A stretch of DNA of 64,000 nt, taken from assembly GCF_016026235.1 (NCBI RefSeq), contig NZ_CP065613.1; one strand, written 5' to 3'. Made by a program: the position numbers. Shown here in pieces: positions 10,999 to 13,900 of this stretch. This DNA comes from Escherichia coli. Its GTDB lineage: Bacteria; Pseudomonadota; Gammaproteobacteria; Enterobacterales; Enterobacteriaceae. Every line of letters begins with the position of its first letter. The first letter of the stretch is position 1.

Positions 10999-13900
10999 TG
11001 AGTTCACAGATAAAACACTCTCCAGGAAACCCGGGGCGGTTCACTCGCACCTCCGCAGTCCTCAAACAAGTCTGGCTGGTAGCTGTAAACAGACTTCGTA
11101 CATACCGCTCTGCAATAAATCCCCGTAGCACAGGCCTCACAGAACTTCTTCCCATGAAAAAACTGCTCACACATCACACAATGCCACTCCAGCACGACCG
11201 GTAATGGTGATAAAAACATCGCCATATCCTCAATGTAAGGGTGGGACTTTTCCGGATTCAGCACCACACAGTCCGCCTTCTGTTGCTCGCTCAGGGCATG
11301 TAAATCGTGCTCAAACCATGCCCCCTGAGCATCTGTCTGCAGAATTAACCGGCCATGACAGGAAAGGCAGAAACAATGCCGGATATTTCTGCTGAGCGCA
11401 GAGTCGGCACTGATAATGTGCTCACCCGGCGTGATCCCCAGCCCCGTTTTTATACCGTTCATTCTGCTACCCCCTCCTCACTGAAGCGCCCGGTCTGGCA
11501 GTGTGTGCAGTACCGCTCCCCATAATAATCGTGGTGACATTGTCTGCAGTGCCAGCTGGCTTTACGCACCACGGGTAAGGCATCCGGGACGAATTGCTGC
11601 AGACGTTTAATCAACCGTATTTCTCTGCGTTCCGGCCTGACATAAGGACATTGCTGCGCGTGCTCCGTCAGCCCGTCGTCAGTGTGTTCAAACCAGAGCC
11701 GTTCGGTGTCGTATTGCGGGTGGTATCTGAGTGCACTGCCGCAAAGGTGGCAGGTGTAGTGGGCATAAGGAGCAGTCTGTGCGGTACGGGCACCGATCAG
11801 ACGTCCGTTGCCATCAAGTGCGAGAAAAGATTTTGCGTACATAGTATATGTTCCTCTGCGCCAGACGACACGCAGGCAACAGCCGTCCCGGTACTGGCAG
11901 CGTGGTCAGGTGTGAATGGCGGTTTTCAGTTCAGTCTCAGAAGGGAAAATCAGTGTGGTCGCTGTGAACACATCATCACACTAAGGTCAGATAAGTCGTC
12001 TGTCGGGCTCAGCCACGACTGCAGCCAAAGTTGCGCTCACCGGTGCCGTAAGCTTTGGTACTCTCCTTCGCCAGATAGTCAGCACGCTCCAGCACCTGCT
12101 GAAAGCCGGTGTCATCATCGCGTTCCAGCCACACCGCCGGCCTGACCGGAAAATGCGCCAGCGTGGTATGATCTCCGGTATCCACTCCCAGGGCACTGCA
12201 CCACGCCTGTTTAATCATCCCGGCCAGTGATCCCGGAGCGCGGTAATCGCCGGCACGACACCAGGTATCCCGGTTGACCAGCAGCATCAGGTGATAGTGT
12301 TTTTTACCTTTGCACTCCCCAAACTCCCGGGCCCAGACGTAATGCAGGGTTGTGGGATGCACGCGTTTACCTTCCCGATGCTTACGTTTCTGGTAAGCGT
12401 CGATTCGGGCTTTCAGGGCATTGATGAAGCGGGATATCACAGCTGCGTCCGTTGCTGCCGGTACATCCGGGAGACGCAGGTCAACCCGCAATGCCGTCAG
12501 GCGGGGATGAACATTCAGTGCGTGCCGCACCGTCTCACGAATACGTTGCTGCCAGAAGGGGTTGTATTTGTAGGTCATGGTTAAATCTCCGTATGGTTCA
12601 TACGGAATAGCCACGTCGTAAAAAATACGCAGAGTCCCTGAAGTGACCTCCGGCAGGACACTGTCTCAGGCACTCTGTGATAACCCGAACGGTCGTCTCC
12701 GGACTGACGATTGAATTCCCGGCGTTGTTTTTTTTAATGTAAAAAACCGGTTACGGATAAGGCGTGGAGAGGGAGCGATCGTGATACGCAAAAAGAAGTG
12801 CAGGGACTGTGGTAACGCAATTACTCATAATACAGTATGTTGCCCGTATTGTGGCGCTGTCGACCCCTTCGGTTATTATCGGAAGACCGATCGTCTGCTC
12901 TGTTTACTGGTAAGCTTCCGGGGAACTCATATTGACGCGTTTTTCAGGCGCGCGTCATCGGCGGCGCATACGAACGCTCGTGGTTTGATAACGGTTGATT
13001 TATTTTGTTGCACAGAGGCGATCGCCAGGCAGGTACCGGAGGCGGGCTCTGAAGTACTGAGTAGCGTGATCGCGTCAGGCCGCGAAGTACTGACTCGGGG
13101 ATTAATTGCAGGTGATGATGTACTGACCCGGGAATGACTCCGGGCTGATTCAGGTTCTTATTCGCTGTCAGCCCGCGTGGTTGCTGGTCTGGCTCATTTC
13201 CTGCCGTCAGGAGTTCAACTCCCGACTGCAGGTTATGGCCCGGTGCACGAACACCTGACGGCAGGTATCACTCACCCGGAGAAGGTAAATCCCTCAAGAG
13301 GCAGCAACTCTGCCAGTCGCTCCTCCGGCCACTCCGGCAGACGCATCAGGACGTCTGTCAACCAGGCATGCGGCTCCAGACCGTTGCGTTTCGCGGTTTC
13401 CAGCAAGCTCATTATTTGCGCGGCGCGTTCTCCCGCCATCTGCGAACCGGCGAACAGCCACGATTTTCTGCCCAGAACCACGTTTTTGATGGCCCGTTCA
13501 CACACATTATTATCCAGCGGCACCGCACCATCTTCCAGGAAGCGGCTCAGTTCCACGCGATGAGACAGCGCATAGGCAATGGCTTTGTGTAATGCCTTTC
13601 CCGGAGAACATTGCGGTTCCTGCTCTTCAAGCCATGACCACAGTTCTTCCAGTATCGGACGGGCATAACGCTGTCGCCACTGGCGGATTTTTTCCACGGG
13701 GCGGCTACTGATCTTCTTCTCAAGACGGTACAACCCGCGATTTTCTTCACAGCTATGGCAGCCCGTGGATCTTTACTGATTTTATACAGGTCGGCGAAGC
13801 CCCTGCGGGCATGGGCCCAGCATCCGGCCAGCGTGATCTCCGGCACTTTGTTTGCCAGAGTCCGGTAAGCTTTATGTCCGTCAACAACCAGCGTCCCGCC

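What the first reader, a model, noticed from the sequence alone, without database searches (positions are those of the whole stretch)
11004..11842. Tandem, translationally coupled paralogous zinc-ribbon proteins with a CoiA-like N-terminal motif
Two adjacent minus-strand ORFs (127 and ~139 aa) overlap by ATGA and share architecture: a C-x2-C-G...WFEH block followed by two further C-x2-C pairs. The pattern recalls the N-terminal zinc-finger region of CoiA-like competence proteins, but each protein is only about a third of CoiA length and they occur as a duplicated pair. I cannot assign a function; small duplicated zinc-ribbon proteins in mobile islands are candidates for nucleic-acid-binding regulators or anti-defense factors. 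The downstream copy is 3'-truncated by IS629, so the pair may be inactive here.
Basis: partly seen in the sequence, partly recalled or inferred. Interest (0 to 1): 0.5.

Follow-up and report, generated by a model that had tools for sequence, protein, structure and literature searches.

The report
Paired DUF7828 zinc-ribbon island genes
Two adjacent small zinc-binding proteins from a catalogued but functionally unstudied enterobacterial family, which in genomic islands sits next to a rolling-circle-type nuclease gene and the AlpA regulator; they are very common in E. coli, so the finding is real but ordinary.

Summary
Window 11459-11842(-) encodes ZR1 (127 aa). Window 11004-11462(-) encodes ZR2 (152 aa here, 141 aa natively). 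The two overlap by ATGA and are paralogues (30% identity, E 1e-13).

Both match Pfam DUF7828 plus Zn_ribbon_11 and are named "putative zinc ribbon protein" in RefSeq. 3,813 of 5,426 complete E. coli genomes have a DNA match.

The CoiA resemblance is real remote homology, but only to CoiA's N-terminal zinc finger (hhalign 95%). There is no nuclease domain, so they are not CoiA proteins.

IS629 removed only ZR2's last codon and stop. However, it also deleted about 4 kb of downstream partner genes.

Across Enterobacterales the family keeps one gene order: YagK/YfjJ (HUH-motif, Rep-like), AlpA, ZR1, ZR2, then an inactive YagK paralogue. Divergent single-copy members keep YagK, AlpA, ZR. One contig encodes a ZR fused to a YagK-like domain.

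My best inference (about 0.4) is that these are zinc-dependent accessory subunits of the island's HUH nuclease. No experiment, solved structure or paper addresses them. No defence or anti-defence signal was found.

The parts
11459..11842 (-). ZR1: 127-aa DUF7828 + Zn_ribbon_11 protein (CoiA_N-like CCHC domain, helix, C4 zinc ribbon). It is intact but carries Leu49 where Pro is conserved in at least 90% of orthologues.
   Evidence: ORF. Pfam 1.3e-29 and 5.5e-9. Orthologue alignment and invariant residues. AF2 model with pLDDT 86.4.
11044..11462 (-). ZR2, native part: residues 1-140 of a 141-aa paralogue with the same two-domain architecture.
   Evidence: ORF. Pfam 3.5e-22 and 1.5e-14. Comparison with intact 141-aa copies in L001 and L004.
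11004..11043 (-). IS629-encoded 12-residue tail plus the stop codon that now closes the ZR2 reading frame.
   Evidence: DNA alignment with intact loci diverges after ...GGTGCGAGT. IS629 terminal repeat lies at 11030-11043.
11459..11462 (-). ATGA overlap of the ZR1 stop and the ZR2 start, which allows translational coupling.
   Evidence: Sequence read directly. In other genera the pair overlaps by 13 nt or is separated by 27-65 nt.
12009..12614 (-). YagK/YfjJ-family gene ('inovirus Gp2 family protein'), called YagK-A here. It has an HUH motif (HYHLMLL) and a YLAK tyrosine motif, so it is a probable Rep/relaxase-like endonuclease. It lies immediately upstream of ZR1 on the same strand.
   Evidence: Pfam PF11726 at 2.7e-48; weak REP_ORF2-G2P at 3.7e-5. 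Motifs seen in alignment A5.
11843..12008 (-). 166-bp spacer between YagK-A and ZR1. In other genera this position holds alpA and, in seven loci, a 44-aa mini zinc-ribbon ORF.
9738..11043 (+). IS629 copy that abuts ZR2. There is no matching target duplication. Relative to strain SCU-172 it replaces 3,974 bp that held the downstream YagK-like genes.
   Evidence: Terminal repeats. Flank mapping to L004. L004 annotation.
17050..17373 (+). alpA homologue of this island (stop-to-stop ORF). Here it lies about 4.4 kb away on the opposite strand rather than between YagK-A and ZR1.
   Evidence: Custom HMM 6.8e-40. Pfam Phage_AlpA 1.6e-8.

Best explanation
ZR1 and ZR2 are members of the Enterobacterales-restricted DUF7828/Zn_ribbon_11 family of about 130-aa proteins. 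Each is predicted to bind two zinc ions. One site is an N-terminal CCHC domain homologous to the zinc finger at the N-terminus of the CoiA nuclease. The other is a C-terminal C4 zinc ribbon. They are backbone genes of P4-integrase-type (CP4-57-like) genomic islands, encoded in one same-strand gene array with a YagK/YfjJ HUH-motif (rolling-circle Rep/relaxase-like) endonuclease and the AlpA regulator/excisionase. I infer that they act as zinc-dependent accessory or specificity subunits of that nuclease. They would bind the island's origin or nick region (ssDNA or a ss/ds junction) and/or the nuclease itself, in the way CoiA's zinc finger accompanies a structure-specific ssDNA nuclease. That would place them in replication or mobilisation of the excised island. 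Shown here: family membership, zinc-ligand conservation, homology to CoiA_N, and gene linkage. Inferred: zinc binding, nucleic-acid binding, partnership with YagK, and the biological process. In this window the module is a decayed remnant. ZR1 has a P49L change, ZR2 has a foreign tail, the downstream YagK paralogues are deleted, and alpA is displaced.
For: Family membership: Pfam hits are above threshold for both proteins. There are 282 and 103 clusters at 90% identity and 330 clusters at 50% identity, nearly all 110-170 aa with the same architecture.

Zinc ligands: the eight putative ligands are invariant across paralogues that share only about 25% identity.

Fold: the monomer model is confident, with pLDDT 86.4 and pTM 0.71.

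CoiA_N homology: shown. CoiA is a structure-specific ssDNA endonuclease with an uncharacterised N-terminal zinc finger (bioRxiv 10.1101/2024.02.06.579203).

Linkage:
- All 18 non-E. coli genome loci with an intact ZR1 and enough upstream sequence carry YagK and AlpA ORFs just upstream on the same strand. Nine loci (eight of these plus the plasmid locus L030) also have a second YagK-like gene right after ZR2.
- PGAP annotates the same order on a Klebsiella plasmid.
- The most divergent single-copy members, from Providencia, Proteus and an unnamed metagenome contig, still follow AlpA, and YagK precedes AlpA where the contig extends that far.

Fusion: one contig encodes a ZR joined to a YagK-like domain. 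Its C-terminal 317 aa match the neighbouring YagK at E 2e-18.

Nuclease motifs: YagK-A proteins keep the HUH and Y-x-x-K motifs, while the downstream YagK-B proteins have lost both.
Against: - There is no experimental datum for any family member. The Pfam names and accessions occur in no paper of the library.
- The proteins are near neutral (pI 5.6-9.0). Apart from the metal ligands, no basic residue is conserved across the family, which is not what a generic DNA binder looks like.
- An AF2 run on a linker-fused ZR1-ZR2 with 12 paired sequences gave pLDDT 59 and pTM 0.31, so it gives no support for a heterodimer. This is an inconclusive test.
- YagK's nuclease nature rests on motifs and sub-threshold Rep hits only. 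It has no sequence relative in the PDB.
- YagK and AlpA occur without ZR in K-12 CP4-57, so ZR is not required for whatever YagK does there.
- The fusion protein is known from a single assembled contig.
Confidence: 0.4

Rival explanations
1. They are small zinc-finger transcription factors that work with or downstream of AlpA to switch on island genes. They would be functional analogues of the Ogr/Delta zinc-finger activators of P2/P4, contacting RNA polymerase rather than the nuclease.
For: ZR genes lie directly downstream of alpA in nearly every non-E. coli locus. The near-neutral charge fits a protein-contact role. The family profile gives a borderline match to the two-zinc-ribbon RNA polymerase subunit RPB9 (E 9e-4), and some UniRef names call members an RNA polymerase subunit. 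P4's vis is an AlpA relative and P4 delta is a tandem zinc-finger activator; this last point is from my own knowledge and was not tested.
Confidence: 0.2
2. They are conflict-system components (a defence sensor, an anti-defence factor or a toxin-antitoxin-like pair) carried as island cargo.
For: The module borders cargo regions rich in defence genes: a Type I R-M system in L011, SMEK_N/CTD10/MC6-family genes in L034, and AbpAB after yfjJ in K-12. ZR2 evolves much faster than ZR1 (mean identity 42% versus 62%) and falls into at least three types.
Against: There is no match to any of 5,027 PADLOC models, no PHROGs family, and no copy in 50,697 phage records. The genes stay fixed next to backbone genes (YagK, AlpA) while the cargo beside them varies. 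The two proteins are paralogues, unlike toxin-antitoxin pairs.
Confidence: 0.08
3. Whatever the family does, the copy in this window is a non-functional relic of a decaying island.
For: IS629 deleted 3,974 bp of downstream module genes relative to SCU-172 and left no target duplication. ZR2 carries a 12-aa foreign tail. ZR1 has Leu at the nearly invariant Pro49, next to the WFEH metal-site motif. alpA is separated by IS66 material. Many E. coli database copies are fragments or frameshifted.
Against: Both reading frames, all eight putative metal ligands, the Shine-Dalgarno sequences and the upstream YagK-A gene are intact. Loss of one C-terminal residue outside both domains is unlikely to matter.
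Confidence: 0.35

Closest known systems
Pfam DUF7828 (PF25165) + Zn_ribbon_11 (PF11682, formerly DUF3279); PGAP 'putative zinc ribbon protein'
   Same: Both window proteins match both models above the gathering score. Copies 99.6% identical in DNA are annotated in RefSeq E. coli genomes.
   Different: Nothing differs apart from the IS-derived tail on ZR2 and the P49L change in ZR1. The family itself has no assigned function and was not found under its Pfam names or accessions in the paper library.
Competence protein CoiA (Bacillota), N-terminal zinc-finger domain CoiA_N (PF25164)
   Same: Residues 5-73 of ZR1 align with CoiA 1-61. The aligned region covers the leading beta-hairpin (A-x-D-x-x-G-x-L-x-x-A), the C-x2-C-G knuckle, the [WH]-F-[EA]-H motif and the trailing Cys (hhalign 95.2%, E 2.6e-8).
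   Different: ZR proteins have no PD-(D/E)XK nuclease domain and no CoiA C-terminal region. They add a C4 zinc ribbon that CoiA lacks. They are found in Enterobacterales islands, not in competence regulons of Bacillota.
Accessory DNA-binding proteins and zinc-finger domains that accompany HUH relaxases, Rep proteins and transposases (for example relaxosome accessory factors, and the N-terminal zinc-binding domains of IS91-family and Helitron enzymes)
   Same: A small putative nucleic-acid-binding partner is encoded with, and in one case fused to, an HUH-motif protein. The comparison itself is from general knowledge and was not tested.
   Different: No sequence or fold similarity to any of these was detected. 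Relaxosome accessory proteins are typically ribbon-helix-helix proteins, not zinc ribbons.
Ogr/Delta zinc-finger late-gene activators of P2/P4
   Same: Both are small Cys4 proteins in a P4-type element that also encodes an AlpA/Vis-like protein, and delta is a tandem duplication. This is from my own knowledge.
   Different: No Pfam Ogr_Delta hit appeared among the matches listed, the cysteine spacing differs, and ZR proteins have an extra CoiA_N-like domain.

Membership tests
Pfam DUF7828 / Zn_ribbon_11 ('putative zinc ribbon protein') | Match to PF25165 above the gathering score (25.7 bits) | tested here: met
   ZR1 scores 102.1 bits and ZR2 scores 78.3 bits.
Pfam DUF7828 / Zn_ribbon_11 ('putative zinc ribbon protein') | Match to PF11682 above the gathering score (24 bits) | tested here: met
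   ZR1 scores 36 bits and ZR2 scores 53.8 bits.
Pfam DUF7828 / Zn_ribbon_11 ('putative zinc ribbon protein') | Conserved CCHC and C4 putative metal ligands | tested here: met
   C31, C34, H53, C65, C99, C102, C112 and C115 are invariant in A2. In A6 all are invariant except C65, which is at least 90% conserved. Actual metal binding is not testable here.
Competence protein CoiA | N-terminal zinc-finger domain (CoiA_N) | tested here: met
   hhalign 95.2%, E 2.6e-8. CoiA_N hits 15 of 35 members. It did not reach E 1 for the two window proteins themselves.
Competence protein CoiA | PD-(D/E)XK nuclease domain (PF06054) | tested here: not met
   There is no PF06054 hit. The proteins are 127 and 141 aa and are fully covered by DUF7828 and the zinc ribbon.
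Competence protein CoiA | Role in natural transformation; distribution in Bacillota | tested here: not met
   All named members are Enterobacterales, and they lie in integrase-borne islands. A role in transformation is not testable here.
Ogr/Delta zinc-finger activators | Match to the Pfam Ogr_Delta model | tested here: not met
   It is not among the hits at E up to 1 for ZR1 and ZR2, nor among the 25 most frequent families listed for 35 members at E up to 10.
RPB9/TFS-type double zinc-ribbon RNA polymerase subunits | Sequence and fold similarity to RPB9 | tested here: inconclusive
Known or candidate anti-phage defence systems (PADLOC-DB 2.0) | Match to any system component model | tested here: not met
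   There are no hits at E up to 1 for ZR1, ZR2 or YagK-A.
HUH endonuclease superfamily (applies to the neighbour YagK-A, not to ZR) | His-hydrophobic-His motif and a catalytic Tyr motif | tested here: met
   HYHLMLL and YLAKESTKAY are conserved in YagK-A-type rows and lost in YagK-B-type rows. The fold was not tested and catalysis is not testable here.

The most novel reading that the evidence does not exclude
The YagK(HUH)-AlpA-ZR array is an undescribed replication or mobilisation engine of the very common CP4-57-like, P4-integrase islands of Enterobacterales. In it the DUF7828 zinc-ribbon proteins would be the origin- or nick-site-specificity subunits of the HUH enzyme. The fast-evolving ZR2 and the catalytically dead YagK-B would form a second, regulatory or specificity-switching pair. 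This would give a mechanism for how these 'cryptic prophage' islands amplify or move after AlpA-driven excision.
Probability: 0.25. Interest if true: 0.6.

Novelty: already known. Interest (0 to 1): 0.3.

Why it matters
As a sequence object it does not matter much. It is a near-identical copy of genes annotated in thousands of genomes and covered by two Pfam models. The useful product of this check is a lead. A family matched in about 70% of complete E. coli genomes has no known function, yet it is locked in synteny with an HUH-motif nuclease and AlpA, and it shares its N-terminal finger with a structure-specific ssDNA nuclease. K-12 lacks these genes next to CP4-57 yfjJ, the one K-12 locus checked, which may explain the absence of data. 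If the linkage reflects a complex, it would point to how CP4-57-type islands replicate or mobilise.

Tried and rejected
- NCBIfam, PADLOC and PHROGs scans of ZR1 and ZR2 gave nothing significant.
- A literature search for DUF3279, DUF7828, Zn_ribbon_11 and the two accessions found 0 papers. Papers that mention YfjJ, YagK or inovirus Gp2 only list the gene as island content.
- Heterodimer test: a linker-fused ZR1-ZR2 with 12 paired sequences gave pLDDT 59 and pTM 0.31. This is uninformative, because the alignment is shallow and the tool reports no interface metrics.
- The RPB9 sequence match (E 9e-4) is attributed to cysteine spacing, because the fold search does not back it.
- The promoter and terminator scan of 10900-13300 did not exceed shuffled controls. 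The inverted-repeat search near YagK-A found nothing that looks like a nick-site hairpin.
- YagK has no sequence relative in the PDB.
It proved 84% identical to real database CoiA clusters, and the conclusions rest on those real sequences.

Full report
**What is in the sequence.** ZR1 is 11459-11842 (127 aa). ZR2 is 11004-11462 (152 aa as an ORF). The ZR1 stop and the ZR2 start share the tetranucleotide ATGA at 11459-11462, and both starts are preceded by purine-rich Shine-Dalgarno-like runs. The proteins are paralogues, with 30% identity over 118 residues and E 1e-13. Each matches two Pfam models above the gathering score. DUF7828 (PF25165) covers about residues 1-87, at 1.3e-29 for ZR1 and 3.5e-22 for ZR2. 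Zn_ribbon_11 (PF11682) covers the C-terminal 30-36 residues, at 5.5e-9 and 1.5e-14.

**The IS629 junction.** IS629 occupies 9738-11043. Its 14-nt terminal repeat is found at both ends, with none expected by chance. Intact E. coli copies of ZR2 are 141 aa and end ...DCGGAST. Aligning the DNA shows that homology runs through ...GGTGCGAGT and then switches to the IS end. Only the last codon (ACT) and the TAA stop are lost, and 12 IS-encoded residues are appended. Both domains of ZR2 are therefore untouched.

The IS did more damage downstream. Window 9503-9737 equals L004 3793-4027, and window 11044 onward equals L004 8002 onward. Relative to strain SCU-172 the IS therefore replaces 3,974 bp. That stretch held the rest of an acyltransferase gene, two YagK-like genes or fragments, and an IS66 element. 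The flanks show no target-site duplication, which fits an IS-mediated deletion. ZR1 is full length but has Leu at position 49, where Pro is conserved in at least 90% of orthologues.

**How common it is and where it occurs.**
- The 799-bp pair has a DNA match in 3,813 of 5,426 complete E. coli genomes, and 1,409 genomes hold at least 80% of it. There are up to 7 places per genome, almost all chromosomal. The best match is 99.6% identical.
- RefSeq annotates the genes as 'putative zinc ribbon protein'.
- ZR1 has 282 clusters at 90% identity and the E. coli type of ZR2 has 103. Many E. coli entries are fragments or frameshifted.
- An exhaustive profile search of 1.84 billion representatives found 330 clusters at 50% identity with E up to 1e-3, and 149 with E up to 1e-10. 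Nearly all are 110-170 aa with the same end-to-end architecture.
- Every named member is from Enterobacterales. Genera include Escherichia, Salmonella, Citrobacter, Klebsiella, Enterobacter, Serratia, Hafnia, Yersinia, Erwinia, Pectobacterium, Rahnella, Providencia and Proteus.
- The family is absent from 50,697 phage records and present in only 33 of 72,556 plasmid records.
- K-12 CP4-57 carries alpA-yfjI-yfjJ, followed by the AbpAB defence genes and no ZR gene.

**The CoiA lead.**
- The Pfam CoiA_N model hits 15 of 35 diverse family members, best E 2.4e-7, although not the two window proteins at E up to 1.
- About half of the real streptococcal CoiA clusters listed carry precomputed DUF7828 hits.
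- A profile-profile comparison of the family (A6) with ten CoiA proteins (A7) gives 95.2% probability and E 2.6e-8. It aligns ZR1 residues 5-73 with CoiA 1-61, through the leading hairpin, the C-x2-C-G knuckle, the [WH]F[EA]H motif and the last Cys.

CoiA's defining PD-(D/E)XK nuclease domain and its C-terminal region are absent. These proteins therefore share a domain with CoiA but are not CoiA family members. CoiA was recently shown to be a structure-specific ssDNA endonuclease of transformation D-loops. Its zinc finger was noted there but not dissected (bioRxiv 10.1101/2024.02.06.579203).

**Genomic context.** This is the most informative result. The gene upstream of ZR1 (12009-12614, same strand) belongs to the YagK/YfjJ family, which PGAP names 'inovirus Gp2 family protein'. 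It matches PF11726 at 2.7e-48 and gives sub-threshold hits to Rep families. In a scan of one genome per species, 24 loci were recovered. HMM searches of their ORFs show one recurring same-strand array: YagK, AlpA, ZR1, ZR2, and often a second YagK-like gene followed by a DUF2913 gene.

All 18 loci with an intact ZR1 and enough upstream DNA carry both YagK and AlpA. PGAP annotates exactly this order on a Klebsiella plasmid. The most divergent members, from Providencia, Proteus and a metagenome contig, are single-copy. They still follow AlpA, and YagK precedes AlpA where the contig is long enough. Variable cargo (ars genes, conflict-system genes) and a P4-type integrase lie beyond them.

An alignment of YagK proteins shows that the upstream copies keep an HUH motif (HYH or HAH) and a Y-x-x-K motif. 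The copies downstream of ZR2 have lost both. One contig encodes a 454-aa protein in which a ZR2-type unit is fused to a YagK-like domain. Its C-terminal 317 aa match the neighbouring YagK at E 2e-18, and hhalign against A5 gives 66%.

In the E. coli island type, alpA is not between YagK-A and ZR1. It lies a few kb away on the other strand, at 17050-17373 in the window.

ZR1 forms a tight clade with mean identity 62%. The second position is filled by at least three divergent ZR2 types with mean identity 42%. The pair is therefore old and its two members evolve differently.

**Interpretation.** The following are shown: family membership, conservation of the eight putative metal ligands, homology of the N-terminal domain to CoiA_N, and near-obligate linkage (once as a fusion) to an HUH-motif protein and AlpA in integrase-borne islands. 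From this I infer that the ZR proteins are zinc-dependent accessory or specificity subunits for the island's HUH enzyme. They would act on ssDNA or junction DNA at an origin or nick site after AlpA-driven excision. My confidence is about 0.4.

Several points count against this. There are no experimental data at all. The proteins are near neutral and have no family-wide conserved basic residues. A linker-fused AF2 model did not pack the two proteins confidently, with pTM 0.31; this is a weak test. The HUH assignment of YagK rests on motifs only.

Three rivals remain:
- An AlpA-associated transcription-factor role, about 0.2. It is favoured by adjacency to alpA and a borderline RPB9 match. It is disfavoured by the absence of an Ogr/Delta or fold match.
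- A defence or anti-defence role, about 0.08. There is no PADLOC, PHROGs or phage signal.
- Independently of function, the window copy may be a relic, about 0.35. The module has been gutted by IS629 and IS66.

**Verdict.** The finding is real and accurately described, but the object is a catalogued, very common family member, so novelty is low. The residual interest lies in the unexplained YagK-AlpA-ZR synteny. I found no paper that mentions the zinc-ribbon family; papers on these islands list the Gp2-like gene only as core content.

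Noticed in passing
L008 7728-7862, L011 about 7716-7850, L012 7728-7862, L013 7730-7864, L014 1180-1314, L027 7729-7863, L030 6729-6863 (all + strand): A conserved 44-aa ORF (MEKRRRTQP...RW.C.RC.R.YCG..PCPVCFR...AQP) lies between alpA and ZR1 in seven non-E. coli loci. It is a stand-alone mini zinc ribbon resembling Zn_ribbon_11 (Pfam E 0.0014). Differences concentrate at third codon positions (180 versus 103 and 85). 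It is not annotated in the RefSeq plasmid record. It is absent from the E. coli and window arrangement.
   Followed up: partly
L008 8836-9471, L011 8836-9471, L012 8906-9454, L027 8746-9450, L007 8790-9386, L010 2620-3279, L004 4495-5061: The YagK-like genes downstream of ZR2 have lost both HUH histidines and the tyrosine motif that the upstream YagK copies keep. They look like catalytically dead paralogues.
   Followed up: partly
L029 2797-4161 (protein P0279, Logan SRR28251006): A 454-aa protein has a ZR2-type unit (residues 1-137) fused to a YagK-like domain (E 2e-18 to the neighbouring YagK). It has a degenerate HUH (YFLHAL). It is known from a single contig, so a lost stop codon or an assembly error cannot be excluded.
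   Followed up: partly
Protein P0023 (E. coli, 143 aa): This is a chimera with the ZR1 N-terminal domain joined at the shared ...LPVV... segment to the ZR2 zinc ribbon and tail. It appears to be a deletion by recombination between the two paralogues.
   Followed up: no
window 9738-11043 and flanks: IS629 has no target-site duplication. Relative to E. coli SCU-172 it replaces 3,974 bp, from inside an acyltransferase gene (remnant at window 9595-9737) to the last codon of ZR2. This removes the downstream YagK-like genes.
   Followed up: yes
window 12781-13137 (+): An ORF divergent from YagK-A begins MIRKKKCRDCGNAITHNTVCCPYCG, another small C-x2-C...C-x2-C zinc-ribbon-like protein with only sub-threshold generic Pfam hits. 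It is annotated as a 65-aa hypothetical protein in other E. coli genomes but is 118 aa as an ORF here.
   Followed up: partly
window 11696-11698 (ZR1 codon 49): ZR1 here reads TERLWFEH, whereas at least 90% of orthologues have Pro before the WFEH metal-site motif. This may be a damaging substitution.
   Followed up: no
C-termini of ZR1 and ZR2 in L008-L014, L027 and many database members: Outside E. coli, ZR1 is about 140 aa and ends in a Cys-containing tail (...EVTACAC, ...CVC or ...CAY). ZR2 ends ...NYCCSTG or ...NYGCNTLPG, and E. coli ZR2 ends ...EDCGGAST. These extra conserved cysteines are not accounted for by the two predicted metal sites.
   Followed up: no
L010 (Serratia sp. Ag1) 295-4234: One array holds two successive sets: AlpA, a YagK-like gene, two further divergent ZR genes (one apparently split), a YagK-B-like gene, and then ZR1 and ZR2. 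The module can therefore be reiterated.
   Followed up: no
L011 10899-13705; L034 6400-9320; L032 5424-9718; L036 (K-12) 8352-12154: The DNA just beyond the YagK/AlpA/ZR block varies between islands. It holds Type I R-M genes, SMEK_N/CTD10/MC6-family genes, an ars operon, or AbpAB. The block therefore borders a cargo and defence hotspot.
   Followed up: no
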